64,000 nucleotides of DNA. It comes from Mobula birostris (Eukaryota). The DNA is taken from assembly GCF_030028105.1 (NCBI RefSeq), contig NC_092382.1:28809792-28873791 (forward strand). Direction: 5' to 3'. The notes below the pieces were generated by a model. That model saw only the letters and a list, made by a program, of their open reading frames with translations. It searched no databases and was not told the origin of the DNA. Of this stretch, positions 11,225 through 64,000 are shown piece by piece (within the stretch, counting starts at the first letter, position 1; each line of letters opens with the position of its first letter). A program made the position numbers and the translations under genes.

Positions 11225-12277
11225 ATGGCTCACCAGCGTGTTTACACTGGCGAGCGGCCGTTCACCTGCTCAGACTGTGGGAAGGAATTCACTGAGTCAT
11301 CCAACCTAATGGCACATCAGCGAGTTCACACTGGGGAGAAGCCGTTCACGTGCTCAGTCTGTGGGAAGAGATTCACTTGGTTATCCACACTACAGAGTCA
11401 TCAGCGAGTTCACACTGGGGAGAAGCCATTCACCTGCTCAGTCTGTGGGAAGAGATTCACTGATTCATCCAACCTACAGAGACATCAGCGAGTTCACACT
11501 GGGGAGAAGCCGTTCACCTGCTCAGTCTGTGGGAAGAGATTCACTGATTCATCCACCGTACAGAGTCATCAGCGAGTTCACACTGGGGAGAAGCCGTTCA
11601 CCTGTTCAGAATGTGGGAAGGGATTCACTCAGTTATCCAAACTACAGATTCATCAGCGAGTTCACACTGGGGAGAAGCCATTCACCTGCTCAGAATGTGG
11701 GAAGGGATTCACTCAGTTATCCGCCCTGCAGAGACATCAGCGAGTTCACACTGGGGAGAAGCCGTTCACCTGCTCAGTCTGTGGGAAGAGATTCACTGAT
11801 TCATCCAACCTACAGAGACACCAATTAGTTCACACAGGGGAGAAGCCGTTCACCTGCTCAGTCTGTGGGAAGAGATTCACTGATTCATCCACCCTACAGA
11901 GTCATCAGCGAGTTCACACTGGGGAGAAGCCATTCACCTGCTCAGAATGTGGGAATGTATTCACTCGGTCATCCCAACTACTGGCACACCAGTCAGTTCA
12001 CACTGGGGAGTGGCCGTTTACCTGCTCAGAATGTGGGAAAGGATTCACTCAATCGTCCACCCTACTGACACATCTGCGAGTTCACACTGGGGAAAAACCG
12101 TTCACCTGCTCAGTCTGTGGGAAGAGATTCACTCAGTCATCCAACCTACAGAGACATCAGCGAGTTCACACTGGGGAGAAGCCATTCACCAGCTCAGAAC
12201 GTGGGAAAGGATTCACTCAGTCATCCAACCTACTGGCACACCAGTCAGTTCACAATGGGGAGTGGCCATTGTTATGA
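11225..12277 (+). CDS. Tandem C2H2 zinc-finger protein (ZF-A), 11 intact fingers plus 1 degenerate C-terminal finger
   Basis: 350-aa ORF of repeated CxxC-x12-HxxxH units with TGEKPF linkers. The stop TGA (12275-12277) lies inside a downstream LTR. The upstream part of the exon (acceptor AG 10842-10843) has frameshifted or stopped degenerate fingers. Confidence 0.9.
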
Positions 12278-13490
12278 ATCCCTAGATTTCGTTTCCTGTG
12301 GACTGTTATTTTGAGAGAGAGAGAGAGAGATTAAGAATGGAAATCAGTCTGACTTGCAGCTTGTTTACATCACTCACAGCTTGTTTAGTTTTAACCGAGG
12401 ACACAGACACTCAGAGTCAGACTGAGATGAAGGAGGAAAAATGGAAGGATCAAAACAAGGGAACTGGTGGCCAAGGGTCACTGTAGAGAACTTTCCTATG
12501 CCCACAAGGGTGGGTTAATTATCGATTCAGCGAACATCAAATGTGAGGTTGTCACCTCATTTGATCCATACGAGTGGATCTGATTTGGGGTATCCTGTGA
12601 AGACCACTTATGTGTTAACCCTTGCCTGGGTGTGGTGTGGGAATTCACTTGAAGACGATACCTCTTGTGACAAGTCACCTTCAGTGATAATTTGTATGTG
12701 GATTTGGAACGACGATGGATAAAATCTACAGCGACTGTTCTTTCGTTTTACCACTGTGGAATTCGACAGAATTGCCTTCTCTTGACATTTACCCTGCACT
12801 ACAAATATCTCTCTCTCATCACCTATTCTGTGGTTGAACTGAACTTTCATAGTTCACCATCTCAAGACTCCAAGCCTTGTTTCCCCTGAGCTCAATAGTT
12901 TGGGAGTTATATTTACACACAAGTACACATAACACTGTTAACTTTTGTTTATCTTGCTAATTACTATATTGTTAGTAGATACGAATAAAGGTAGTGGATG
13001 TAACATCAAAAACAGACTCTAAGGGTAGTCTATTGCGTCTGGCTCATTTCTAAAGCGTTACGGTTCATAACAAAATTTGGGCTTGCATCCGGGATATGAA
13101 CAGATTTGAGGGCGTATTGATTAATTATCGATTTCATTCGAGAAATCCCTTTTGATTTATTTGTGTGTGGAAAATCAGCAGGAATGGATGTTGATAGATT
13201 TCTGGAAGCACCAGCCTCTGAGGCGTTAGAGGACACCAGAAGGATTGAGTTGTTGAGTATTGCTAAAAGGTTAAAACTTGCTAAGGTGAAATCGACAATG
13301 AGGAGGTCACAGATGCAGAGGATAATAGCTGAACATTATGTATCTGAGGGTGTGTTTAAAGTGGAGGAGTTGGAGGTGTTTCCTGGAAGTAAACCAAGTG
13401 AGCTTAGGCTCCCGTACAAGTTAGAAAAATTAAAGATGGAGGCTGTGGAAAGGCAGAGGCAGGTTGAGGCTGGACAGGCAGGAAAACAGC
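12270..13490 (+). mobile_element. Truncated Gmr1-like element (copy 1): LTR 12270-13072, PBS and 5' gag fragment
   Basis: Perfect 9-bp inverted termini TGTTATGAA...TTCATAACA. AATAAA at 12984. PBS-like TTGGGCTTGCATCCGGGAT. The gag start (MDVDRFLEAP..., 13184) matches 59590. Cut off by a CR1 fragment at ~13490. Confidence 0.85.
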
Positions 13491-19984: not shown

Positions 19985-20438
19985 TGTAACATGCTGTAAG
20001 GTTTCACTGCTAATGTAATGGCCTCTCTGCAATGGTTCACTGCTGAGGTAGTGGTTTCTCTGTAGCAGTAACATTTAGGTTATGACTAGAGATAACAGGG
20101 TTTTGGAGTACGGGGCTATCCAATGGGAGAAATGTTCTTTCTTGAGAGTCTGGAAGAGAGATTTTCATGGTCTTTTGCCAAGGAGGGATCAGAAGACGTG
20201 AATGGAGAGAGTGGGCCCTTTTTCTTTATTTTGTTTTCTTTACTAACCCTGTAGTCAAAATAAGAATTATAATTCTCAATTATTTAATCACATATTGTGT
20301 ACTGCTTGTTATTTTGGGGTACTGATTTGTAACAGGGGACACATCGTGCAGCATCCACCCAAACGAGATTTCTTAAGATTGGCCGGGCCGGGAGCTATCG
20401 ACCCCCACATTAAACTGCTAGTCGAAGTGAGAGTTACA
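19985..20438. mobile_element. Solo-LTR-like insertion (454 bp) in a decayed zinc finger of ZF-B
   Basis: Inverted termini TGTAAC...GTTACA. Absent from the paralogous site in ZF-C (~46722-46740, TGTCACAAGGTTAAATG). No clean 4-6-bp TSD is visible. Confidence 0.7.
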
Positions 20439-31299: not shown

Positions 31300-31520
31300 C
31301 CCCTATCTCCATTCCTCCTGTCGCCCACAACCAGCTCCGTTGTTTCTGTCACCGGGAGGCAGAGGTTGTTTCCTTGAGTCGGGGTGATGACTCCTTCTCT
31401 GCCGGCTGACCTATTATTATGGAGATGAGGCCGGTCAGTCAGCGGATTTAACCTGCAGATTGGAGCTGTGGGTGGCGACACGGTCATGGGTGAACACACG
31501 GAGAGTGAAGGGGACAGGGT
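31300..31520 (-). mobile_element. Decayed Rex1/Babar RT fragment contiguous with the satellite
   Basis: Minus strand reads ...FTHDRVATHSSNLQVKSAD...GLIS...NNL...TELVVGDRRNGD, matching the Rex1-type YTHDCVA..SSN..IKFADD..ELVVD.R and the copy at 24135. Confidence 0.7.
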
Positions 31521-34500
31521 GTGTGTGTGTCACGGGTGAACACACGGAGAGTGAAGGGGACAGGGTGTGTGTGTGTGTGTGTGTGTCACGGGTGAACACA
31601 CGGAGAGTGAAGGGGACAGGGTGTGTGTGTGTGTGTGTGTGTCACGGGTGAACACACGGAGAGTGAAGGGGACAGGGTGTGTGTGTGTCACGGGTGAACA
31701 CACGGAGAGTGAAGGGGACAGGGTGTGTGTGTGTGTGTCACGGGTGAACACACGGAGAGTGAAGGGGACAGGGTGTGTGTGTGTGTCACGGGTGAACACA
31801 CGGAGAGTGAAGGGGACAGGGTGTGTGTGTGTGTCACAGGTGAACACACGGAGAGTGAAGGGGACAGGGTGTGTGTGTGTGTGTGTCACGGGTGAACACA
31901 CGGAGAGTGAAGGGGACAGGGTGTGTGTGTGTGTGTCACGGGTGAACACACGGAGAGTGAAGGGGACAGGGTGTGTGTGTGTGTCACAGGTGAACACACG
32001 GAGAGTGAAGGGGACAGGGTGTGTGTGTGTGTGTGTCACGGGTGAACACACGGAGAGTGAAGGGGGCAGGGTGTGTGTGTGTGTGTGTGTGTCACGGGTG
32101 AACACATGGAGAGTGAAGAGGACGGTGTGTGTGTGTGTCACGGGTGAACACACGGAGAGTGAAGGGGACAGAGTGTGTGTGTCACGGGTGAACACACGGA
32201 GAGTGAAGGGGACAGGGTGTGTGTGTGTGTGTGTGAGACGGGTGAACACACGGAGAGTGAAGGGGACAAGGGTGTGTGTGTGTGTGTGTCTCACGGGTGA
32301 ACACACGGAGAGTGAAGGGGACAGGGTGTGTGTGTGTGTCACGGGTGAACACACGGAGAGTGAAGGGGACAGGGTGTGTGTGTGTGTCACGGGTGAACAC
32401 ACGGAGAGTGAAGGGGACAGGGTGTGTGTGTGTGTCACGGGTGAACACACGGAGAGTGAAGGGGACAGAGTGTGTGTGTGTGTGTGACGGGTGAACACAC
32501 GGAGAGTGAAGGGGACAGGGTGTGTGTGTGTCACGGGTGAACACACGGAGACTGAAGGGGACAGGGTGTGTGTGTGTGTGTGTGTCACGGGTGAACACAC
32601 GGAGAGTGAAGGGGACCGGGTGTGTGTGTGTGTCATGGGTGAACACACGGAGAGTGAAGGGGACAGGGTGTGTGTGTGTGTCACGGGTGAACACACGGAG
32701 AGTGAAGGGGACAGGGTAGGTGTGTGTGTGTCACGGGTGAACACACGGAGAGTGAAAGGGACAGGGTGTGTGTGTGTGTGTCACGGGTGAACACACGGAG
32801 AGTGAAGGGGACCGGGTGTGTGTGTGTGTCATGGGTGAACACACGGAGAGTGAAGGGGACAAGGGTGTGTGTGTGTGTGTGTCTCACGGGTGAACACACG
32901 GAGAGTGAAGGGGACAGGGTGTGTGTGTGTGTCACGGGTGAACACACGGAGAGTGAAGGGGACAGGGTGTGTGTGTGTGTCACGGGTGAACACACGGAGA
33001 GTGAAGGGGACAGGGTGTGTGTGTGTGTCACGGGTGAACACACGGAGAGTGAAGGGGACAGAGTGTGTGTGTGTGTGTGACGGGTGAACACACGGAGAGT
33101 GAAGGGGACAGGGTGTGTGTGTGTGTGTGTCACGGGTGAACACACGGAGAGTGAAGGGGGCAGGGTGTGTGTGTGTGTGTGTGTGTGTGTCACGGGTGAA
33201 CACATGGAGAGTGAAGAGGACGGTGTGTGTGTGTGTCACGGGTGAACACACGGAGAGTGAAGGGGACAGAGTGTGTGTGTCACGGGTGAACACACGGAGA
33301 GTGAAGGGGACAGGGTGTGTGTGTGTGTGTGTGTGAGACGGGTGAACACACGGAGAGTGAAGGGGACAAGGGTGTGTGTGTGTGTGTGTCTCACGGGTGA
33401 ACACACGGAGAGTGAAGGGGACAGGGTGTGTGTGTGTGTCACGGGTGAACACACGGAGAGTGAAGGGGACAGGGTGTGTGTGTGTGTCACGGGTGAACAC
33501 ACGGAGAGTGAAGGGGACAGGGTGTGTGTGTGTGTCACGGGTGAACACACGGAGAGTGAAGGGGACAGAGTGTGTGTGTGTGTGTGACGGGTGAACACAC
33601 GGAGAGTGAAGGGGACAGGGTGTGTGTGTGTGTCACGGGTGAACACACGGAGAGTGAAGGGGACAGTGTGTGTGTGTGTGTCACGGGTGAACACACGGAG
33701 AGTGAAGGGGACAGGGTGTGTGTGTGTCACGGGTGAACACACGGAGACTGAAGGGGACAGGGTGTGTGTGTGTGTGTGTGTCACGGGTGAACACACGGAG
33801 AGTGAAGGGGACCGGGTGTGTGTGTGTGTCATGGGTGAACACACGGAGAGTGAAGGGGACAGGGTGTGTGTGTGTGTCACGGGTGAACACACGGAGAGTG
33901 AAGGGGACAGGGTAGGTGTGTGTGTGTCACGGGTGAACACACGGAGAGTGAAAGGGACAGGGTGTGTGTGTGTGTGTTACGGGTGAACACACGGAGAGTG
34001 AAGGGGACCGGGTGTGTGTGTGTGTCATGGGTGAACACACGGAGAGTGAAGGGGACAAGGGTGTGTGTGTGTGTGTGTCTCACGGGTGAACACACGGAGA
34101 GTGAAGGGGACAGGGTGTGTGTGTGTGTCACGGGTGAACACACGGAGAGTGAAGGGGACAGGGTGTGTGTGTGTGTCACGGGTGAACACACGGAGAGTGA
34201 AGGGGACAGGGTGTGTGTGTGTGTCACGGGTGAACACACGGAGAGTGAAGGGGACAGGGTGTGTGTGTGTGTCACGGGTGAACACACGGAGAGTGAAGGG
34301 GACAGAGTGTGTGTGTGTGTGTGACGGGTGAACACACGGAGAGTGAAGGGGACAGGGTGTGTGTGTGTCACGGGTGAACACACGGAGACTGAAGGGGACA
34401 GGGTGTGTGTGTGTGTGTGTGTCACGGGTGAACACACGGAGAGTGAAGGGGACCGGGTGTGTGTGTGTGTCATGGGTGAACACACGGAGAGTGAAGGGGA

Positions 34501-37207
34501 CAGGGTGTGTGTGTGTGTCACGGGTGAACACACGGAGAGTGAAGGGGACAGGGTAGGTGTGTGTGTGTCACGGGTGAACACACGGAGAGTGAAAGGGACA
34601 GGGTGTGTGTGTGTGTGTCACGGGTGAACACACGGAGAGTGAAGGGGACCGGGTGTGTGTGTGTGTCATGGGTGAACACACGGAGAGTGAAGGGGACAGG
34701 GTGTGTGTGTGTGTGTGTGTCACGGGTGAACACACGGAGAGTGAAGGGGACAGGGTGTGTGTGTGTGTGTGTGTCACGGGTGAACACACGGAGAGTGAAG
34801 GGGACAGGGTGTGTGTGTGTGTCACGGGTGAACACACGGAGAGTGAAGGGGACAGGGTGTGTGTGTGTCACGGGTGAACACACGGAGAGTGAAGGGGACA
34901 GGGTGTGTGTGTGTCTCACGGGTGAACACACGGAGAGTGAAGGGGACAGGGTGTGTGTGTGTCACGGGTGAACACACGGAGAGTGAAGGGGACAGGGTGT
35001 GTGTGTGTGTGTCACGGGTGAACACACGGAGAGTGAAGGGGACAGGGTGTGTGTGTCACGGGTGAACACACGGAGAGTGAAGGGGACAGGGTGTGTGTGT
35101 GTGTGTCACGGGTGAACACACGGAGAGTGAAGGGGACAGGGTGTGTGTGTGTGTCACGGGTGAACACACGGAGAGTGAAGGGGACAGGGTGTGTGTGTCA
35201 CGGGTGAACACACGGAGAGTGAAGGGGACAGGGTGTGTGTGTGTCACGGGTGAACACACGGAGAGTGAAGGGGACAGGGTGTGTGTGTGTGTCACGGGTG
35301 AACACACGGAGAGTGAAGGCGACAGGGGGTGTGTCACGGTCACGGGTGAACACACGGAGAGTGAAGGGGACAGGGTGTGTATGTGTGTCACGGGTGAACA
35401 CACGGAGAGTAAAGGGGACAGGGTGTGTGTGTGTGTGTCACGGGTGAACACACGGAGAGTGAAGGGGACAGGGTGTGTGTGTGTGTCACGGGTGAACACA
35501 CGGAGAGTGAAGGGGACAGGGTGTGTGTGTGTCACGGGTGAACACACGGAGAGTGAAGGGGACAGGGTGTGTGTGTGTCACGGCTGAACACACGGAGAGT
35601 GAAGGCGACAGGGGGTGTGTCACGGTCACGGGTGAACACACGGAGAGTGAAGGGGACAGGGTGTGTATGTGTGTCACGGGTGAACACACGGAGAGTAAAG
35701 GGGACAGGGTGTGTGTGTGTGTGTCATGGGTGAACACACGGAGAGTGAAGGGGACAGGGTGTGTGTGTGTGTGTCACGGGTGAACACACGGAGAGGGAAG
35801 GGGACAGGCTGTGTGTGTGTGTGTCACGGGTGAACACACGGAGAGTGAAGGGGACAGGGTGTGTGTGTCACGGGTGAACACACGGAGAGTGAAGGGGACA
35901 GGGTGTGTGTGTGTCACGGGTGAACACACGGAGAGTGAAGGGGACAGGGTGTGTGTGTGTGTCACGGGTGAACACACGGAGAGTGAAGGGGACAGGGTGT
36001 GTGTGTGTGTCACGGGTGAACACACGGAGAGTGAAGGGGACAGGGTGTGTGTGTGTGTCACGGGTGAACACGGAGAGTGAAGGGGACAGGGTGTGTGTTT
36101 GTGTGTCACGGGTGAACACACGGAGAGTGAAGGGGACAGGGTGTGTGTGTGTCACGGGTGAACACACGGAGAGTGAAGAGGACAGGGTGTGTGTGTGTCA
36201 CGGGTGAACACACGGAGAGTGAAGGGGACAGGGTGTGTGTGTGTGTGTCACGGGTGAACACACGGAGAGTGAAGGGGACAGGGTGTGTGTGTGTGTGTCA
36301 CGGGTGAACACACGGAGAGTGAAGGGGACAGGGTGTGTGTGTGTGTCACGGGTGAACACACGGAGAGTGAAGGGGACAGGGTGTGTGTGTCTCACGGGTG
36401 AACACACGGAGAGTGAAGGGGACAGGGTGTGTGTGTGTGTGTCACGGGTGAACACACGGAGAGTGAAGGGGACAGGGTGTATGTGTGTCACGGGTGAACA
36501 CACGGAGAGTGAAGGGGACAGGGTGTGTGTGTGTGTCACGGGTGAACACACGGAGAGTGAAGGGGACAGGGTGTGTGTGTGTGTCACGGGTGAACACACG
36601 GAGAGTGAAGGGGACAGGGTGTGTGTGTGTGTGTCACGGGTGAACACACGGAGAGTGAAGGGGACAGGGTGTGTGTGTGTGTCACGGGTGAACACACGGA
36701 GAGTGAAGGGGACAGGGTGTGTGTGTGTGTCACGGGTGAACACACGGAGAGTGAAGGGGACAGGGTGTGTGTGTGTGTGTCACGGGTGAACACACGGAGA
36801 GTGAAGGGGACAGGGTGTGTGTGTGTGTCACGGGTGAACACACGGAGAGTGAAGGGGACAGGGTGTGTGTGTCACGGGTGAACACACGGAGAGTGAAGGG
36901 GACAGGGTGTGTGTGTGTGTCACGGGTGAACACACGGAGAGTGAAGGGGACAGGGTGTGTGTGTGTGTCACGGGTGAACACACGGAGAGTGAAGGGGACA
37001 GGGTGTGTGTGTGTGTCACGGGTGAACACACGGAGAGTGAAGGGGACAGGGTGTGTGTGTGTGTCACGGGTGAACACACGGAGAGTGAAGGGGACAGGGT
37101 GTGTGTGTGTGTCACGGGTGAACACACGGAGAGTGAAGGGGACAGGGTGTGTGTCACGGTCACGGGTGAACACACGGAGAGTGAAGGGGACAGGGTGTGT
37201 GTGTGTG
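31484..37207. repeat. ~5.7-kb tandem array, unit CACGGGTGAACACACGGAGAGTGAAGGGGACAGG(GT)n, ~44-58 bp, roughly 115 copies
   Basis: Directly visible: a constant ~34-bp core plus a variable GT tract. Confidence 0.98.
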
Positions 37208-37608: not shown

Positions 37609-38765
37609 GTGGGGAGCTCCTGCGCCGGTGGCGCTGAGGAGGAGCTCCGACACTGGTGGCGCTGAGGGGAGCTCCGACCACTGGAGGCGCTGTGGGGAGC
37701 TCCGACCACTGGAGGCGCTGTGGGGAGCTCCGACACTGGTGGCGCTGAGGGGAGCTCCGACCACTGGAGGCGCTGTGGGGAGCTCCGACCACTGGAGGCG
37801 CTGTGGGGAGCTCCGACCACTGGAGGCGCTGTGGGGAGCTCCGACACTGGAGGCGCTATGGGGAGCTCCGACACTGGTGGCGCTGTGGGGAGCTCCGACA
37901 CTGGTGGCGCTGTGGGGAGCTCCGACCACTGGTGGCGCCGTGGGGAGCTCCGACACCGGTGGTGCTGTGGAGGAGCTCCGACACCGGTGGCGCTGTGGGG
38001 AGCTCCGACACCGGAGGCGCTGAGGAGGAGCTCCGACACCGGAGGCGCCGTGGGGAGCTCCGACCCCGGTGGCGCCGTGGGGAGCTCCGACCCCGGTGGC
38101 GCCGTGGGGAGCTCCGACCACGGGTGGTGCTGTGAGGAGCTCCGACCCCGGTGGCGCTGTGGGGAGCTCCGACCCCGGTGGCGCTGTGGGGAGCTCCGAC
38201 CCCGGTGGCGCTGTGGGGAGCTCCGACCCCGGTGGCGCTGTGGAGGAGCTCCGACCCCGGTGGCGCTGTGGAGGAGCTCCGCCACCGGAGGCGCTGTGGG
38301 GAGCTCCGACACTGGAGGCGCTGTGAGGAGCTCCGACCACTGGTGGCGCCGTGGCGAGCTCCGACCACTGGTGGCGCCGTGGGGAGCTCCGACACTGGAG
38401 GCGCTGTGGGGAGCTCCGACACCGGAGGCGCTGTGGGGAGCTCCAGCCACTGGTGGCGCTGTGGGGAGCTCCGACCCCGGTGGCGCTGAGGAGGAGCTCC
38501 GACACCGGAGGCGCTGTGGGGAGCTCCGACACCGGTGGCGCTGTGGAGGAGCTCCGACACCGGTGGCGCTGTGGAGGAGCTCCGACACCGGTGGCGCTGT
38601 GGAGGAGCTCCGACACCGGTGGCGCTGTGGAGGAGCTCCGACACCGGTGGCGCTGTGGAGGAGCTCCGACACCGGTGGCGCTGTGGAGGAGCTCCGACAC
38701 CGGTGGCGCTGTGGAGGAGCTCCGACACCGGTGGCGCTGTGGGGAGCTCCGACCACGGGTGGTGC
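37609..38765. repeat. GC-rich minisatellite, 27-28-bp unit GG(A)GGAGCTCCGACACCGGTGGCGCTGT, ~40 copies
   Basis: Directly visible. Each unit carries the palindrome GGAGCTCC and several CpGs. Confidence 0.97.
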
Positions 38766-39230
38766 TGCGGCGAACCTCCCGCTAAACGCAGTCGCTGTGC
38801 CGACCGCAGCCGTCGCCGGCGGTTCTCCTGTTCAGGCGGCGGTGAGGAAGGACCGATCCCGCTTTTGTGTAAGTTGGGGGCTGACTGCAGTGCGAAAGGG
38901 CCGGGACCGACTTCTGCTGGACGGCTGGAGGCTCCGGGCTCTCCGGTCCCGCGGCCCCGATTTTAGCTTTGCACCCGAGCCCGGGTGGTGGGATCAGTTG
39001 TTGTTCCCAGGCTGGGAGAGGGTTTGGGGCGAAGGGTATCTGTCTGTGTGTGGGTAGAGGTTATGGGTGGACTGTGGGTGTGGGGTGAGTGGAGGGAAGG
39101 GTGTGGGACCGTAGTCGGGTGGGGTTGCTGTTGTGAGGAACTGGGATGATCGGACGTTCCGTGACCCGGGTCGGTCAAATAAAGTTGTCAACGGGAGGAT
39201 CTGCTCCGTTGTATCGGACGCTCGGGCATC
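38766..39230 (+). promoter_or_regulatory. CpG-rich region with candidate short first exon (donor GTAAGT ~38868)
   Basis: CpG-dense, GCCGTCGCCGGCGG, consensus donor. Faces away from the 37.4-kb promoter. Confidence 0.45.
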
Positions 39231-51939: not shown

Positions 51940-52410
51940 AAGCCGTGCGACAGAAATTTCGCCCTTGCCGAAGCACCGATCAAATGCGCAGGCGTCGGCG
52001 TTGTGACGTTGCCGAATATCACGCATGCGCGCAGTATACGGAAGGCCTCAAAAGACCGACAGCAGGTAAGAGCGCGTCCCCGGGGATGAGGGAGAAGGTG
52101 AGGGGAGACATGGAAAGGGGAGAGCGGAGGGGGAGGGACAATTGCTGTGATCTCCGGGCACCATGACCCGCAATCCCGGGACAGTCCTGCTCTCTTCCCT
52201 CTCTCTCAGCCCCACCATCCGTACACGGGCCCCGGGGAGCTTCCGGCTGATGAGGGAATGGGAACCGATGGGTCTCTCAGACAGAGCTGAGCTCCAGCTG
52301 TCTAAATGCAAGGATCGGGAACTCGGAGAAAGGGAACAAAATGTTTTACATCAGCTGTTGTGAAAATCACCTTTGTTCTGCCTCCAGTCACAAACAAGAG
52401 AAAATCTGCA
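51940..52410 (+). promoter_or_regulatory. NRF1-motif promoter / first exon of ZF-D
   Basis: TGCGCAGGCG and CGCATGCGC (52022-52030); donor CAG|GTAAGA at 52066. Confidence 0.62.
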
Positions 52411-55400: not shown

Positions 55401-57457
55401 GCAAATTTGCGGATGACACCAAGATTGGTGGTGTAGTGAACAGTGAGGAAGACTATCATGGCTGCTGTTGCGATCTGGACCAACTGGGAAAATGGTTTGA
55501 GAAATGGAAAATGGAATTTAATGCAGACAAGTGTGAGGTGTTGCACTTTGGTAGGACCTACCAAGAGAGGTCTTTCACTGTGACTGGTAGGGCACTGAGG
55601 AGTTTTGTAGAAGAAAGGGATCTGGGAATACAAGTCTTTAATTCACTGATGTTGGGGGAGTCCAGAACCAGAGGCCACAATTTGAGAATAAGGGGTAGGT
55701 CATTTAGCATGGAGTTGAGGAAAAACTTTTTCAGCCAGAGAGTTGTGGATCTGTGGAATGCAGTGGAGGCCAATTCTCTGAATGCTTTCAAGAAAGAGAG
55801 AGATCTCTTAATGATAGCAGAGTCAAGGGATATGGGGAGAAGGCAGGAACGGGGTACTGATTGTGGATGATCAGCCATGATCACAGTGAATGGCAGTACT
55901 GGCTTGAAGGGCCAAATGGCCTACTCCTGCACCTATTGTCTATTGAAAATGGTGTCATGGATGTGACGGAAAGAAAGACTTTGGCCCATTGGCCTTCATG
56001 AACCAAAGTACTGACAACAATAGATAGACGTTATGTTGACTTGTGGAAGACATTGGTGAGGCCTAATTTGGAGTATTGTGTACAGTTTTGGTCACCTACC
56101 TACATGAAGGTTGTAAAAGAGGTTGAAAGAGTTCAGAGAAAATTCACAAGGATGTTGCCAGGTCTGGAGGACTTGGGTTATTAGGAAAGATTGAACAGGT
56201 CAGGACTTTATTCCTTGGAACATAAAAGATTGAGGGGAGATTTGATGGAGGTATACCACTATTATGAGGGGTATAGATAGGGTAAATGCAAGCTGGCTTT
56301 TACCACTGAGATGGGGTGGAACGACAACCAGAGACCATGGGTTATGGGTAAAAGGTGAAACGTTAAGGGGAACATGAGGGGAAACTTCTTCATACAGACC
56401 GTCATCCGGGTGTGGAATGAGCAGCCAGCACAAGTGGTGCATGCGAGCTCAATTTCAACATTTAAGAGGTTTGTATAGGTACCTGGATGGTAGGGGTATG
56501 GGAGTGGGCAGATTAAATAGTTCAGCACAAACCAGATGGTCCAAAGGGCCTGTTTCTGTGTTGTAATTTTCTGTGACTGTGACAAGAACCTGGAATAATA
56601 CAAAAATTCACTCTAAGTTCTTTTAACAGCTGTGCAGACCAACCATTCATCTCAGCAGGAATTTTTTATATAGCGTTAAAACTGTGGCACTTTTAAGTTA
56701 ATAATACATAAAAGAAAATCCCAGATGCATGACAAGAAAGACAACTTGCCTGATACTCTTTCAGTTACTGTGGGGCCAGGCATCCATGCTGCTCAGCAAT
56801 GGAGAGAGTCAAACTGAGCCAAGGAGCAAATCGGAGACGGCAGAAATGCCCCATTCTGATAGAGACAGGAAGAGCATCAAGGAATTGATGGTCATTCCAG
56901 ATACCAGCACTGTGCCCAGTTAGAAGATGATTTCTCTCTCCAACTTGGGTTGAACCTCACTGTAACAGTGTGATGCCAGATCAAACCTTGAAAACTCAAG
57001 TAATCTCATCTGAAATGTTGTCCTAACCCAGTGATGGATTTTGTAAATCTTTTTACAGGTTAAAAACGAGATGGAATTTAGCTCCTAGGATCTCAAACAC
57101 AGTTTTGCTGTCTCTGTCCAGATGTTTGAGAAGTGGAGCAAGGGATTCAATCGACCACCCTTCCAGCTCAGACTCTGGGGAGGGATTCACTTGGTCATCT
57201 GACTGACTGGCATGCCCGTCATTTTACACAGGGGAAAGGCCATTCACCTGCTCAGACAGTGGGAGTGGATTCAGTCGGTTATCTCAATTGAAGGTACATC
57301 AGCAAGTTCACACTGGACAAGGCCATTCATCTGATCTGTGTGTGAGAAGGGATTCAGTCGGTCATCCCACCTGTGGACAAACCAGGCAATTCACACTGGG
57401 CAGAGGCTGGTCATCTGCTGAATTTGTGGGGAAGGATTCACTCGGTCATCTGACCTA

Positions 57458-58678
57458 ATGGCTCACCAGCGGGTTCACACTGGGGAGAAGCCGTTCACCT
57501 GCTCAGTCTGTGGGAAGAGTTTCACTAATTCATCCACCCTACAGGGACATCAGCGAGTTCACACTGGGGAGAAGCCATTCACCTGCTTAGTCTGTGGGAA
57601 GAGATTCACTCAGTCATCCAACCTACAGAGTCATCAGCGAGTTCACACTGGGGAGAAGCCGTTCACCTGCTCAGAATGTGGGAAGGGATTTACTCAGTCA
57701 TCCAACCTTCAGAGTCATCAGCGAGTTCACACTGGGGAGAAGCCGTTTACCTGCTCAGAATGTGGGAAGGGATTCACTAAGTTATGCAGCCTACAGATTC
57801 ATCAGCGAGTTCACACTGGGGAGAAGCCGTTCACCTGCTCGGTCTGTGGGAAGGGATTCACTAATTCATCTTCCCTACAGAGTCATGAGCGAGTTCACAC
57901 TGGGGAGAAGCCATTCACCTGCTCAGAATGTGGGAAGAGATTCACTCAGTCATCCCACCTACAGAGTCATCAGCGAGTTCACACTGGGGAGAAGCCATTC
58001 ACCTGCTTAGAATGTGGGAAAGGATTCACTCAGTCATCCAGACTGCTGGTACACCAGTCAGTTCACAGTGGGGAGTGGCCGTTCACCTGCTCAGACTGTG
58101 GGAAGGGATTCACTTGCTCATCTAAGCTAATGGCTCACCAGCGAGTTCACACTGGAGAGATGCTGTTCACCTGCTCAGTCTCTGAGAAGAGATTCACTGA
58201 GTCATCCAACCTAGTGGCACACCAGCAAGGTCACACTGGGGAGAAGCCGTTCACCTGCTCAGTCTGTGGGAAGAGATTCACTCAGTCGTCCCCCCTGCAG
58301 AGCCATGAGCGAGTTCACACTGGGGAGAGGCCGTTCACCTGCTCAATCTGTGGGAAGAGATTCACTCACCCATCCACCCTACAGAATCATCAGCGAGTTC
58401 ACACTGGGGAGAAGCCATTCACCTGCATAGTCTGTGGAAAAAGATTCACCCAATCATCCACCCTACAGAAACATCAGCGAGTTCACACTGGGGAGAAGCC
58501 GTTCACCTGCTCAGTCTGTGGGAAGAGATTCACTCAGTCATCTAACCTACAGAGTCATCAGCGAGTTCACACTGGGGAGAAGCCATTCACCAGCTCAGAA
58601 TGTGGGAAAGGATTCGCTCAGTCATCCCACCTACTGGCACACCAGTCAGTTCACAATGGGGAGTGGCCATTGTTATGA
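57458..58678 (+). CDS. Tandem C2H2 zinc-finger protein (ZF-D), 12 intact plus 2 degenerate fingers; paralog of ZF-A
   Basis: 406-aa ORF with TGEKPF linkers and the same HNGEWPLL* end as ZF-A. Acceptor AG 57057-57058, with upstream in-frame stops before the first ATG. Confidence 0.9.
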
Positions 58679-59478
58679 ATCCCCAGATTTCGTTTGCTGT
58701 GGACTGTCATTTTGAGAGAGAGAGGGAGATTAAGAATGGAAATCAGTCTGACTTGCATCTTGTTTGCATCGCTCACAGCTTGTTTAGTTTTAACCAAGAA
58801 CACAGATACTCAGTCAGACGGAGATGAAGGAGGAAAAATGGAAGGTTCAAAACAAGGGAACCAGTGGCCAAGGGTCACTGTTTCGAACTTTCCTCTGCCC
58901 ACAAAGGTGGGTTAATTATCAATTCAGCGAACATTCGATGTGTGGTTGTCACCTCATTTGATCCATAGGAGTGGATCGGATTTGGGGTATCCTGTGAAGA
59001 CCACTTATGTGTTAACCCTTGCCTGGGTGTGGTGTGGAAATTCACTTGAAGGCGATATCCCTTGTGACAAGTCACTTTTGGTGATAATTTGTATGTGGAT
59101 TTGGAACAACGACGGATGAAATCTACAGCGACTGTTCTCTCGTTTTACCACCATGGATGCTGTGGAATTCAACGTTATTGCCTTCTCTCGACATTTACCC
59201 TGGATTACAAATATCTCTCTCTCCTCAACTATTCTGTGGTTGAACTGAACTTTCATAGTTCACCATCTCAAGACTCCAAGCCTGGTTTCCCCTGAGCTCA
59301 ATAGTTTGGGAGTTATATTTACCCACATATATACACATAACACTGTTAACTTTTGTTTATCTTGCTTAAGTTACTATATTGTTAGTAAGTACTAATAAAG
59401 ATAGTGGACTTAACATCAAAAACAGACTCTAGGTGTAGTCTATTGCTGCTGACTCATTTCTAAAGTGTTACGGGGACA
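58671..59478 (+). repeat. 5' LTR of the Gmr1-like element (copy 2)
   Basis: Starts TGTTATGAA, ends ...GACA, AATAAA at 59394. Aligns along its length with 12270-13072. Confidence 0.85.
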
Positions 59479-62095
59479 AAATTGGGGCCTGCATCCGATA
59501 TAGGAAAAGATTTGGAGGCGTATTGATCAGTTATCGGTTTCATTGGAGAAATCCCTTTTGATTTATTTGTGTATGGAAAATCAGCAGCAATGGATGTTGA
59601 TAGATGTCTGGAAGCACCAACCTCTAAGGCACTGAAGGATACCAGAAGGATTGAGTTGTTGAGTATTGCTAAGTGGTTAAAACTTGCTAAGGTGAAATTG
59701 ACAATGAGGAGGTCACAGATGCAGAGGATAATAGCTGAACATTATGTATCTGAGGGTGTGTTTAAAGTGGAGGATTTGGAGGTGTTTCCTGAAAGTAAAC
59801 CTAGTAAGCTTGGCCTCCTGTACAAGTTAGAAAAATTCAAGATGGAGGCTGTGGAAAGGCAGAGGCAGGTTGAGGCTAGAGAGGCAGGAAAACAGAGAGA
59901 AGAGGCAGAAAAACAGGGAGGAAGCAGAAAGACAGTGGCTGTTCAAGCTGGAAAAGATAGAGAGATTGCAGCAAAGGGGTCTAGCGTTAGACTCTGGTGA
60001 TAAGTTTGAGGCCAGTCGGGAAGTTAAATTGGTACCTCCATTTGACGAGGCAGAGGTTGATAAATACTTTCAGCATTTTGAGAAGGTTGCTCAGGGTTCA
60101 AAATGGCCAAAAGAGGGTTGGCCTATTCTCTTACAAAGTGTAATTAAGGGGAAGGCTCAGCAAGCCTATTCTGCTTTGACAGTTGATGAAGCAGCTGATT
60201 ATGAGATGGTCAAACAGGCTGTGCTCAAAGCTTACGAGTTGGTCCCAGAAGCATACAGGCAAAAGTTTAGAAGTTTGAGGAAATCTGTGAACCGGACTTA
60301 TATGGAATTTGCTTATGAGAAGTTTGTGTGTTTTGACCGCTGGTGCACATATAAAAATGTAAATGATGATTTTAACAGCTTGAAAGAGTTGGTTTTAATT
60401 GAAGAATTCAAAATGTGCGTCCCTGATGACATAAAGATGTAATTAAATGAAAAGGATGCTGCCACTTTGCAGGAGTCTGCTAGATTAGCAGATAAGTTTG
60501 CTTTAACTCATAAGGTTAAGTTCACCCAGAATAAGAGCTTCCAAAAGAGTAGCAGGGATAACCAGGGTAAACCAGAAATTAAAGCTGGGACTAGTGACGA
60601 GACTAAGGATGAAGGGAAGCAGTTGAAGGAGAAATATTCCGGTCTCTCTTGTTACTATTGTGAGAAAGCTGGTCATATGGTGGCTAATTGTCCTGTCCTG
60701 AAGAAGAAAAAGGAAAAGGAGGCAGTCCCACATGCCTGTGATCAGTATGTTGAAGCACCTATAAACCCACAGGGTTCTGAACATTCTGCTGAGGCTCAGT
60801 TAAGGACTGAGAGGTCTGACTGAGTTAAGAAGGGATTCGATCATTTTATGTCAAATGGGTTTGTATTAGTAATGGAAGGGTCAACCCCGCTACCAGTGAA
60901 AATTCTTCGAGATACTGGGGCTTCTCAGTCACTTATATTAGTTCGGTGATGAGACTGACACTGGTGAGGTAAATCTTATTAAAGGCATTGGGGGCAGCAT
61001 TGTTTCTGTTCCATTGCACAAGGTAACTTTACAGTCAGGGTTGGTTTCGGGACCTGTTAGGATTGGATTATGCTCCAGTTTACCAGTGGAAGGTGTTACT
61101 TTGCTGTTAGGGAATGACCTGGCAGATGGTAAAGTTGTTCCTGCAGTGCAGTTGACAACTAAGCCAACCACTGACGACCCACAGATGGATTTTAACATTT
61201 ATCGCAATAACTCGAAGTATGGCTAAAAAGTCTGCCAATGCAGACAGTTCTGTGCAGCATGATTCTGATACCCATGATAGCCAAAATTGGGATTCGGGTT
61301 ATGATGACTTGTCAGGGACCTTTCAGCCTTCATTGTTTCAACAGGATTCAGGTAGTAAGTCTGATGAGAAAGATTTATCCCTGTCTAGGAAGGAGTTTAC
61401 AGAAGAACAGAACTGAGACCCTGAGATTGAAGCTTTATAAGAAACATCTTTCTCAGATGATGAGATTAAGAAAATGACAGTAGGGTATTATCTCAAGGAT
61501 GGAGTGTTAATGAGGAAGTGGAGGCCACCTGCTATACCTGCGAGTGAGGAATGGGCAATTGTTCCTAAAGTTTATAGGACTGAAATTTTAACTTCGGCCC
61601 ACAGTATGCCCGTAGGTGGCCATTTTGGCATGAATAAAACTCTAAACAGGATTATGAAAGAATTTTACTGGCCGAATTTGAGGAAGGATATTGTGACCTT
61701 TTGCAGAACCTGTCACAGTTGTCAAGTTGTGGGTAAACCTAATCAGGTCACCCTAGTGGCCCCACTCCGGCCTATACCTGCATTCGGTGAACCCTTTTTC
61801 AAATTTTATTAAAGCTAAATATTAAAGCAATATTAAAGCTAAAACTGTGGCAAAGGCTCCTAACAAGTTTTTTAACTTTATTTGGTTTGCCTAAAGAAAT
61901 CCAGTCTGACCAAGGAAGTAATTTTACATCTGGATTATTCCAGCAGGTAGTTTATGAACTGGGAGCTAAACAAATTACATCGTCTACGTACCATCCGGAA
62001 TCACAAGAGGCTTTAGAAAGATTTCATTCTACCCTCAAAACAATGATTAAGACGTACTGTGTTGAAAATGGACAAGACTGGGATGAAGGAATACA

Positions 62096-62173
62096 ACAGG
62101 AATTCTGCAGATGCTGGAAATTCAAGTAACACACATCAACGTTGCTGGTGAACGCAGCAGGCGAGGCAGCATC
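62096..62173. mobile_element. 78-bp Penelope-terminus-like insertion in the Gmr1 integrase
   Basis: Flanked by the 12-bp direct repeat TGAAGGAATACA (62084-62095 and 62174-62185). Sequence CTGCAGATGCTGG...GCAGCATC matches the PLE-end repeats elsewhere in the window. Confidence 0.75.
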
Positions 62174-62205
62174 TGAAGGAATACATTTGCTTTTGTTCAC
62201 CGTAA

Positions 62206-62681
62206 AGGCTGATTTATACTTGTGCGTTCGGGATACGCCATATCCTACACCGTAGGCCCGATTTAATTTTTGCGTAGCCCTACGCCATAGCGAGCATGCG
62301 TAGTTGTGTCTGCATCGCTCTGCACTTCACCAGCAAAATGCAAGTTGGTGGTGGGGTTTCTCTGACACTGTTGAGCTTCTTCGTGAGAGACATGGACAAG
62401 GAAATGCATTTCAAATATTTTCAGATGTTGGCAGGTAGATTGGACGATTTGGTTCATTGTCTCCAAGCATTTATTTCGCATCAGTGTACAGACATGGCGG
62501 AGAAAAGCAACCAGAAATGTGTAGGAGGAAATGCGATGCTACCAAGCGGACCAATCACAGTGGTTGCGGTCTGCGTCACCGCGACGCGTGAGTTACTTTT
62601 TTGAGGAGATGCCTGTCACCCTACGGCGTAGGGTACAGCGAGGGTACGGCGTACACTTGATGCATTAGTATAAATCAGGCT
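62206..62681. mobile_element. Non-autonomous PIF/Harbinger DNA transposon nested in the Gmr1 integrase
   Basis: 15-bp TIRs AGGCTGATTTATACT / AGTATAAATCAGGCT (14/15) and TAA TSD on both sides. Removing it restores integrase FTVKESVQESLGFCPFELVFG. Internal MHFKYFQM...LDDLV resembles a Harbinger transposase N-terminus. Confidence 0.85.
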
Positions 62682-64000
62682 TAAAAGAGTCGGTACAGGA
62701 GTCACTGGGCTTTTGTCCATTTGAACTTGTATTTGGTCATAGAGTGAGGGGACCTTTGACCTTGTTAAAGGAACAGTGGATTGATGGGGAGGTATATGTT
62801 AACTTGTTAGACTATGTTTTGAATTTCAAAAATAAACTACACCAAGCCTGTAGTCTAGCCAGACGAATCTTAAAGATTTCTCAAAACAAAATGAAGTGTT
62901 GGTTTGATAAGCGGACTAAAACAAAAGAAAATACTAGGTGGGGGATAATGTGCTTGCCTTATCTCCAATGTTGATGGATCCACTTCAAGCGAAATTCAAT
63001 GGACCGTATGAAATAGTCTCGCAAATTAATGATGTGAATTATGTTATTAAAACACACGACCGACGTAAGCTAACACAGGTGGTACACATCAATATGATAA
63101 AGCCTTATTCTGACAAGCAGGCACCATCGGTGAGTGTTGTCAAACATATCAATCTGGCAACCCTGAGAATGAAACAATTGACTTGTCTGAGACTTTACAC
63201 AAGCCAAACATGGTCCCAGTTAGGCTAATGAACACTGTTGTTCTCGAAAACATTGACAACAAGTTGGCTCATCTGCAGCCAAAGCAACAACAACAGCTGA
63301 AGGAATTAATTCTGAAGTTTAAAGATTTATTTCCCGATGTTCCCAAGCAAACCACGGTCGCAGTACATGACATAGATATTGGTCAAGCCAAACCTATTAA
63401 ACAACACCCATATTGCATGAATGTAGAAAGGTGTAAATTGGCTGAGCAGGAAATTGAATATATGCTGGAAAATAGTATTATTAGGCCTTCAACATCAGAT
63501 TGGAGCTCACCCTGCGTTATTGTGCCCAAACCTGATGGTAGTGTTAGATTTTGCACTGATTATAGGAAGGTAAATGCAGTAATAAAAACAGATGCCTATC
63601 CTATCCCTAGGGTGGATGATTGCATCAATAAGATTGGAAAAGGTAATTTCTTACAAAGATTGATCTGTTGAAAGGGTATTGGTGTGTTCCATTGACGGAC
63701 TGAGGTAGAGAAATTTCTGCATTTGTGACACCTTCTGGGTTGTATAAATACAATGTTTCGCCATTTGAAATGAAATATGCTCCAGGAACATTCCAGAGAA
63801 TGACTGCTCCTGTAATTCAAGAGTTAGGACACACAGATGCCTATATTGATGACTTCGTCACAGGGAGTGACACTTGGGAAGAGCATATCTCTGTAGTAGA
63901 AAAGCTGTTTGACAGGCTTTCCAGGGCCAACCTTACAGCTGACTCAGCTAAGAGTGAATTTGGCCATGCCACTGTGATCTGTCTTGGCTGTGTTGTAGGT

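What the first reader, a model, noticed from the sequence alone, without database searches (positions are those of the whole stretch)
58600..64000. Gmr1-like (SCAN-donor family) Gypsy element inserted in-sense inside a tandem zinc-finger array
Seen: the element has integrase upstream of RT and a capsid with ELVPEAYRQKFR. Its LTR begins exactly within a finger linker (GAG TGG CCA T|TGTTATGAA), in the same orientation as the ZF gene. Established: PR-IN-RT order defines Gmr1-like Gypsy elements, and the tetrapod SCAN domain of ZF genes derives from Gmr1-like capsid. Inference: this physically juxtaposes SCAN-like gag and C2H2 fingers in a lineage whose ZF genes here show no KRAB or SCAN. If the rest of the array lies beyond the 3' LTR, an LTR-driven gag-to-finger splice would recreate a SCAN-ZF-like fusion independently. 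The gag here is disabled by a frameshift and a stop, so this copy may be only a fossil.
Basis: partly seen in the sequence, partly recalled or inferred. Interest (0 to 1): 0.8.

Follow-up and report, generated by a model that had tools for sequence, protein, structure and literature searches.

The report
Dead retrotransposon ending 230 zinc-finger genes
In a ray genome, one old, broken retrotransposon landed in a zinc-finger gene, now supplies its stop codon, and was copied along with that gene into more than 200 relatives; no capsid-finger fusion gene was found.

Summary
The anatomy is real. A Gmr1-like Gypsy element (SCAN-like capsid, integrase before RT) starts at 58,671, in sense, in a C2H2 linker. 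It is not a unique insertion splitting an array. Beyond the window it is cut inside pol by a LINE piece, with no 3' LTR, TSD or resumed fingers. The same ZF|LTR junction occurs 231 times in the genome (97 of the first 100 listed on contig C17), against 426 native ZF 3' ends. Copies share later damage, so one insertion was multiplied by segmental duplication. Dispersed relatives show no ZF targeting (0 of 28). The LTR supplies two codons and the stop. The finger frames stay open (78 of 92) and avoid CpG-derived stops (1 TGA vs 31 CAA), while gag is broken in 87 of 89. Best reading: a passenger fossil that became the coding end, and probably the 3' end, of a large ZF subfamily. Use of its poly(A) signal is inferred; no RNA was examined. 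No SCAN-ZF fusion was found: the order is reversed, and stops block the ZF frame after the acceptor. The closest known case is ERV co-duplication in mouse KZFP clusters.

The parts
51990..52067 (+). Putative short non-coding first exon and GT donor (52,066-67) in a CpG-rich segment
   Evidence: Sequence; the same motif recurs before other ZF units. Exon status is inferred, no RNA.
57059..57457 (+). 5' part of the ZF exon after an AG acceptor (57,057-58): degenerate fingers with stops in all three frames
   Evidence: translation; acceptor inferred from the motif shared by paralogues
57458..58678 (+). C2H2 finger coding frame from the first Met (12-14 fingers), ending GEWP-LL-stop; the last two codons and the stop overlap the LTR start
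58671..59478 (+). 5' LTR (TGT...ACA, 808 bp); TGA at 58,676-78; AATAAA at 59,394-99
59483..59501 (+). Decayed primer-binding-site-like stretch (likeness to the tRNA-Pro 3' end is recalled, not tested)
   Evidence: same position in paralogues
59590..60823 (+). Broken gag: frameshift in the coiled-coil repeat near 59,900, SCAN-like capsid 60,245-60,436, stop at 60,440-42, CCHC knuckle 60,650-60,694
60880..61200 (+). Broken protease region (D-T-G motif read by eye; no Pfam hit)
61561..63105 (+). Broken integrase (H2C2, rve, p58_C/SH3), interrupted by an insert at about 62,095-62,685 that copy L073 lacks
63300..64000 (+). Broken RT. Past the window it holds a nested 775-bp solo LTR with a 5-bp TSD and is then cut by a LINE piece about 1 kb beyond the window end
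12270..13489 (+). Second copy of the same ZF|LTR junction in this window (90% identical), cut in gag

Best explanation
(1, shown) A Gmr1-like LTR retrotransposon sits in sense in a finger linker of a finger-only C2H2 gene, and the first LTR bases give two codons and an in-frame stop. (2, shown by absence; mechanism inferred) The downstream half of the array was lost, by deletion or by recombination with a related element lying in a LINE. (3, shown) The gene-plus-element unit was copied by segmental duplication at least 231 times, mostly along 90 Mb of one ZF-rich contig, and sub-lineages picked up shared nested inserts and truncations. (4, shown) The finger frames are kept free of stops while gag and pol decayed. 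(5, inferred) Having lost the native 3' UTR, these genes most likely end their transcripts at the LTR poly(A) signal. The element is a passenger that became the 3' end of roughly a third of the ZF genes counted by these two end motifs.
For: Same junction register in 30 of 30 top LTR hits, 20 of 20 further copies, and 26 of 30 loci found with a 3' LTR query. 231 junction matches, control 0, vs 426 native 3'-end motifs. 16 of 20 copies share the nested solo LTR, the LINE cut and the downstream flank at 92-99%; retrotransposition would not copy these. 0 of 28 dispersed relatives on 18 other contigs hold a ZF motif. At least 8 fingers are open up to the LTR stop in 78 of 92 copies, and in 15 of 20 taken in list order. 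At the CpG arginine codon, 1 TGA vs 31 CAA in 25 representatives. The first 215 gag codons are free of stops and frameshifts in only 2 of 89. In the two copies with both LTRs, 5'/3' identity (82-86%) is lower than between-copy identity (87-90%), as expected if insertion came before duplication.
Against: No RNA was examined, so expression and poly(A) use are untested. The hexamer is AATAAA or ATTAAA in 88 of 93 copies, but is no more conserved than the rest of the LTR among representatives (share 0.76 vs LTR median 0.76). Gag differences show a third-position excess (113 vs 84 and 85 extra alleles, permutation p 0.007), and pairwise dN/dS is 0.57, the same as the fingers' 0.58; pure neutral decay does not predict this. 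Only 98 junction copies were read, against 231 matches, and most were chosen by LTR similarity. Copies are not independent, and finger homogenisation can inflate the CAA count.
Confidence: 0.82

Rival explanations
1. Site-specific targeting: an active Gmr1-like family repeatedly inserted at the same linker position of different ZF genes.
For: Identical register in all copies read. Third-position excess in gag could reflect divergence among active elements. Three different LTR insertions lie at ZF array ends within 93 kb.
Against: Copies share post-insertion damage and flanks. No 3' LTR+TSD+finger junction genome-wide: 3 pattern hits, none ZF, none on C17. 0 of 28 dispersed relatives in ZF. The left flank usually carries the same rare last finger.
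Confidence: 0.05
2. One reading: LTR-driven gag (SCAN-like) spliced to fingers gives an independent SCAN-ZF-like protein.
For: The capsid passes the SCAN cut-off in two copies with an open gag frame (30.5 and 37 bits). In 3 copies read over 10 kb (5 share this LTR type and breakpoint) the element is cut after gag and the next same-strand ZF exon lacks its CpG-rich upstream segment.
Against: In those 3 copies gag stops after 129 codons, before the capsid, and the ZF frame has stops after the acceptor. The two open-gag copies are followed by the next gene's promoter-like segment. 0 of 120 listed gag homologues carry a C2H2 domain (353-1124 aa only). 0 of the top 30 genomic SCAN loci hold a ZF motif within 1.5 kb. 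A vertebrate survey found one origin of host SCAN (10.1101/2025.03.03.638093, passages).
Confidence: 0.04
3. Pure hitch-hiking: the LTR gives the stop, but has no role in 3' end formation. Transcripts end at other signals, or many copies are recent pseudogenes.
For: The poly(A) hexamer is not specially conserved. 5 of 98 copies lack the 3' part of the LTR. 14 of 92 have fewer than 8 open fingers.
Against: The native 3' end is gone in these genes, and the LTR holds the nearest sense-strand AATAAA, about 715 bases after the stop. Stops are strongly avoided in the fingers.
Confidence: 0.3

Closest known systems
ERV co-duplication in young mouse KRAB-ZF clusters (PMC12575710; review PMC13709654)
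   Same: LTR elements gain copies by segmental duplication with ZF genes, giving groups of near-identical copies in the cluster (section 12 read; the review passages cite 13 MMTV copies).
   Different: Here the host is a ray, the genes lack an in-frame N-terminal domain, the element is a Gypsy, the copy number is at least 231, and the LTR forms the end of the coding frame. The parts I read do not describe that.
Gmr1-like Ty3/Gypsy retrotransposons (PMC8220671 and 10.1101/2025.03.03.638093, passages)
   Same: SCAN-like capsid, then PR, IN, RT, RNase H; abundant in fish genomes.
   Different: This copy is non-autonomous and broken. Its capsid is a weak SCAN match (26.5-37 bits) while other elements in this genome score 52-92 bits, so it is not the SCAN-nearest lineage present.
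SCAN-ZF genes of amniotes (Emerson and Thomas 2011, not held; seen only as cited in PMC4592553, PMC3424704 and the 2025 preprint)
   Same: A Gmr1-like capsid physically next to a tandem C2H2 array.
   Different: SCAN-ZF has the capsid N-terminal and in frame, captured from an upstream element. Here the capsid is downstream of the stop, broken, and under no clear constraint.
Transposon-derived terminators and 3' ends (PMC3517506, search listing only; otherwise recalled)
   Same: A sense-oriented LTR ends a host gene.
   Different: The known cases I recall concern single loci. Here one event was inherited by a whole subfamily, and poly(A) use is not yet shown.

Membership tests
Gmr1-like Ty3/Gypsy | Integrase upstream of RT (PR-IN-RT-RH) | tested here: met
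   Pfam coordinates; RT_RNaseH after RT in copy L073, E 9e-15
Gmr1-like Ty3/Gypsy | Gypsy-type enzymes (RVT_1, integrase C-terminal p58/SH3) rather than Copia | tested here: met
   RVT_1 E 1e-10, Integrase_p58_C E 3e-13, SH3_Tf2-1 at its cut-off
Gmr1-like Ty3/Gypsy | Capsid matching SCAN PF02023 | tested here: met
   26.5 bits in the stop-truncated window frame (cut-off 27); 30.5, 37 and 26.6 bits in three paralogues
Gmr1-like Ty3/Gypsy | RT/IN phylogeny grouping with named Gmr1 | not tested
   No sequence named Gmr1 was returned by any search
Intact LTR element insertion | Two LTRs flanked by a target-site duplication | tested here: not met
   No 3' LTR here or in 20 of 20 close copies; two distant copies have a 3' LTR followed by LINE-like sequence, not ZF
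SCAN-ZF (SZFP) gene | SCAN N-terminal to and in frame with the fingers | tested here: not met
   Order reversed, with a stop at 58,676; stops after the ZF acceptor
SCAN-ZF (SZFP) gene | Capsid frame intact and conserved | tested here: not met
   2 of 89 copies unbroken over 215 codons; only a modest third-position excess
SCAN-ZF (SZFP) gene | Spliced capsid-finger transcript | not tested
   No RNA data were examined
Co-duplicated LTR element in a ZF cluster | Copies share both flanks and later damage, and cluster with the ZF genes | tested here: met
   (88 of 89 on C17)
LTR-derived terminator | Transcripts polyadenylated in the LTR | not tested
   Hexamer present; no RNA examined

The most novel reading that the evidence does not exclude
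This ZF chromosome is a staging ground for a second, independent capsid capture. Two different Gmr1-like elements sit in sense at ZF exon ends and were amplified (at least 231 and at least 27 junctions). Two copies keep an open gag frame, and a five-copy lineage places LTR and gag upstream of a ZF exon that lost its own first exon. Among the junction copies not read here (more than half), or through a cryptic acceptor, an LTR-driven in-frame capsid-finger transcript could exist, which would be a SCAN-ZF-like gene outside amniotes.
Probability: 0.05. Interest if true: 0.85.

Novelty: new variant of a known kind. Interest (0 to 1): 0.45.

Why it matters
It extends the co-duplication model of ZF genes and LTR elements from mouse KRAB-ZF clusters to a cartilaginous fish. 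It also goes a step further: the element defines where the protein ends in a large share of the family. The shared junction and nested inserts are clean lineage markers for dating how a roughly 90-Mb ZF cluster grew. It is a caution too: apparent enrichment of an LTR family in ZF exons can be a single event. If poly(A) use is shown, one insertion set the 3' UTR of hundreds of transcription-factor genes.

Tried and rejected
Sequencing-run search: no RNA holder listed; no reads were laid, so expression stays open. PDB sequence search with an open gag-protease frame: 0 hits. Protein search with the last 203 aa of a ZF paralogue returned generic ZF proteins at 46-63% identity, none ending in the junction peptide, so the age of the junction in other species is unknown. 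The first family-B junction pattern was mis-designed and found 0; it was redone. The base-contact dN/dS split was mis-indexed and is not used. Pairwise dN/dS did not separate gag from fingers (0.57 vs 0.58). A test for extra conservation of the poly(A) hexamer was negative. Weak Pfam hits below cut-off (Ran_BP1, CHASE9, TcdB_N, UcrQ) were treated as noise. Earlier scan notes: none for this genome. Literature searches listed no title or abstract on this ray ZF-LTR cassette; this covers only the held library. Emerson and Thomas 2011 and PMC12952962 were not held. Supplements of the 2025 preprint, which may list the 68 genomes surveyed, were not seen and may bear on whether cartilaginous fish were checked for SCAN-ZF genes.

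Full report
Setting. The window lies at 28.81-28.87 Mb of contig C17 (112 Mb) in a 4.0-Gb genome. The closest named relatives of the gag-protease are from Hypanus sabinus and Mobula hypostoma, so the host is inferred to be a myliobatiform ray. The window holds four tandem C2H2 arrays among LINE-like fragments.

Observation. The finger frame 57,422-58,678 runs into the LTR at 58,671. The LTR's first bases complete two leucine codons and a TGA. The LTR is 808 bp, TGT...ACA, with one AATAAA at 59,394. Pfam finds SCAN (26.5 bits, cut-off 27), a CCHC knuckle, three integrase parts and then RVT_1. RNase H follows RT in a distant copy. This matches the Gmr1-like order stated in PMC8220671 and 10.1101/2025.03.03.638093 (passages read). 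A tree with named Gmr1 was not made.

What lies to the right. RT is interrupted by a 775-bp solo LTR with a 5-bp TSD, resumes for about 170 bases, and is cut by a LINE-like piece (the LINE label is read by eye). No full 3' LTR and no resumed finger occur in 29 kb. A genome-wide pattern for LTR end + target repeat + finger gave 3 hits, none ZF and none on C17. Two copies near 89-90 Mb keep a 3' LTR, and both are followed by the same LINE-like interior sequence. Their 3' LTRs carry a U3 segment that the 5' LTRs lack. Recombination between two insertions, or a deletion, would explain this; I cannot tell which.

One event, many copies. All 40 scored LTR hits were on C17, and all 30 fetched had the same linker junction and an LTR-supplied stop. 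An LTR-terminus pattern gave 89 hits, 88 on C17. The 19 hits beyond 36 Mb and the one on C4 were fetched, and 20 of 20 were again ZF|LTR. A junction pattern gave 231 matches with control 0; of the first 100 listed, 97 are on C17, 2 on C5 and 1 on C4 (this pattern requires the stop). A native ZF 3'-end motif gave 426. Both counts are lower bounds. Of 20 copies read over 10 kb, 16 share the nested LTR, the LINE cut and the flank beyond it, 4 are cut earlier, and none has a 3' LTR.

No targeting. An RNase H/PPT query returned 30 loci: 2 cassette copies and 28 elements on 18 other contigs, with LTR blocks mostly 71-86% identical to the window's. None of the 28 holds a ZF motif; the 17 whose LTR end was printed have unrelated flanks. 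So the family is dispersed and the ZF link is inherited, not targeted.

Which part is maintained. I read 98 distinct junction places (104 hits, 6 duplicates dropped; most chosen by LTR similarity, 20 in list order). At least 8 fingers are open up to the LTR stop in 78 of 92 with 1 kb or more upstream, and in 15 of the 20 list-order copies. Each finger has a CGA codon whose CpG decay should give TGA (stop) and CAA (Gln) equally. Observed were 1 and 31 in 25 representatives, and 5 and 142 in all 98 (copies are not independent). There are 37 distinct eight-finger fingerprints among 78 copies. In contrast, the first 215 gag codons are unbroken in 2 of 89 alignable copies. Against a purely neutral gag: third positions carry more alleles (p 0.007), and pairwise dN/dS is 0.57. 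Overall gag diversity (0.076-0.103 by position) brackets the LTR's 0.094. Mutation bias or conversion from dispersed relatives may explain this; it is untested. The poly(A) hexamer is AATAAA in 77 and ATTAAA in 11 of 93 copies, but no better kept than the LTR median.

The SCAN-ZF idea. The capsid is downstream of the stop, not upstream of the fingers. Between the ZF exon's acceptor and the finger frame there are stops, in the window gene and in three downstream genes checked, so splicing to that acceptor cannot give an in-frame fusion. In the three read over 10 kb, the next same-strand ZF exon lacks its CpG-rich upstream segment. There gag stops after 129 codons, so at most the LTR could serve as a promoter (inference). 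A genome search with PF02023 scored 150 matches at 52-92 bits, 1 on C17; 0 of the top 30 have a ZF motif within 1.5 kb. None of 120 listed gag homologues carries PF00096. The 2025 preprint reports one origin of host SCAN among 68 vertebrate genomes (passages).

A second cassette. About 11 kb right of the window a different Gmr1-like LTR (73% identical) sits in sense in the degenerate last finger of another ZF gene. Its junction occurs 27 times, all on C17. Its shortened gag is 91% identical to a 397-aa M. hypostoma RefSeq protein. All 41 close matches here (84-92%, all on C17, of 124 matches) contain at least one stop.

Comparison and verdict. PMC12575710 (abstract and section 12 read) and PMC13709654 (abstract passage and other passages) describe ERVs multiplying by segmental duplication inside mouse KZFP clusters. 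This finding works the same way, in a distant lineage, at larger copy number, and with the element forming the end of the coding frame. It is a member of the Gmr1-like group by domain order and capsid, it is not a SCAN-ZF gene, and it is a likely but unproven LTR-derived terminator. Novelty: new variant of a known kind. Interest 0.45.

Noticed in passing
L032:2190-4540 (about 11-13.5 kb right of the window): Second Gmr1-like element in sense at the end of another ZF array; 27 junction matches, all on C17. Its internally deleted gag is open (397 aa) in a Mobula hypostoma RefSeq model but has stops in all 41 close matches here.
   Followed up: partly
window 19985-20438: A 454-bp solo LTR (TGT...ACA), antisense to the ZF gene, in the degenerate last finger of the minus-strand array; also present in L050, L051 and L053. 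It is the third LTR insertion at a ZF exon end within 93 kb.
   Followed up: partly
L031:1064-1838: Nested 775-bp solo LTR with a 5-bp TSD inside RT; it matches LTRs beside the high-scoring SCAN-capsid elements L139-L162, so it belongs to another Gmr1-like family.
   Followed up: partly
C17 0.4-90 Mb: C17 looks like a ZF chromosome: 91 of the first 100 listed native ZF 3'-end motifs and nearly all listed junctions lie on it. It recalls zebrafish 4q (recalled; FiNZ genes on 4q are mentioned passages).
   Followed up: no
L045:1349-3322 and L049:1349-3274: Two cassette copies hold an open gag-protease frame (658 and 642 aa) while their integrase core is deleted.
   Followed up: partly
C17 near 0.43, 1.38, 12.56 and 18.95 Mb: Four second-family junctions have the native ZF 3'-end motif 1.9-2.1 kb downstream, suggesting short or solo-LTR forms with the gene end resumed (20 of 27 junctions against 7 hand-picked motif positions; not read).
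   Followed up: no
window 31483-37207 and 37609-38767: Two long G-rich minisatellites: a 48-bp unit with 117 copies and a 28-bp unit with 42 copies.
   Followed up: no
window about 62,200-62,685: Insert in the integrase with inverted ends, read by eye as MITE-like, preceded by a short interspersed repeat.
   Followed up: no
proteins P0009, P0011: M. hypostoma RefSeq isoforms named after host genes (MACC1, PISD) consist largely or wholly of Gmr1-like gag(-pol) sequence, which may be LTR-driven chimeric models or annotation artefacts.
   Followed up: no
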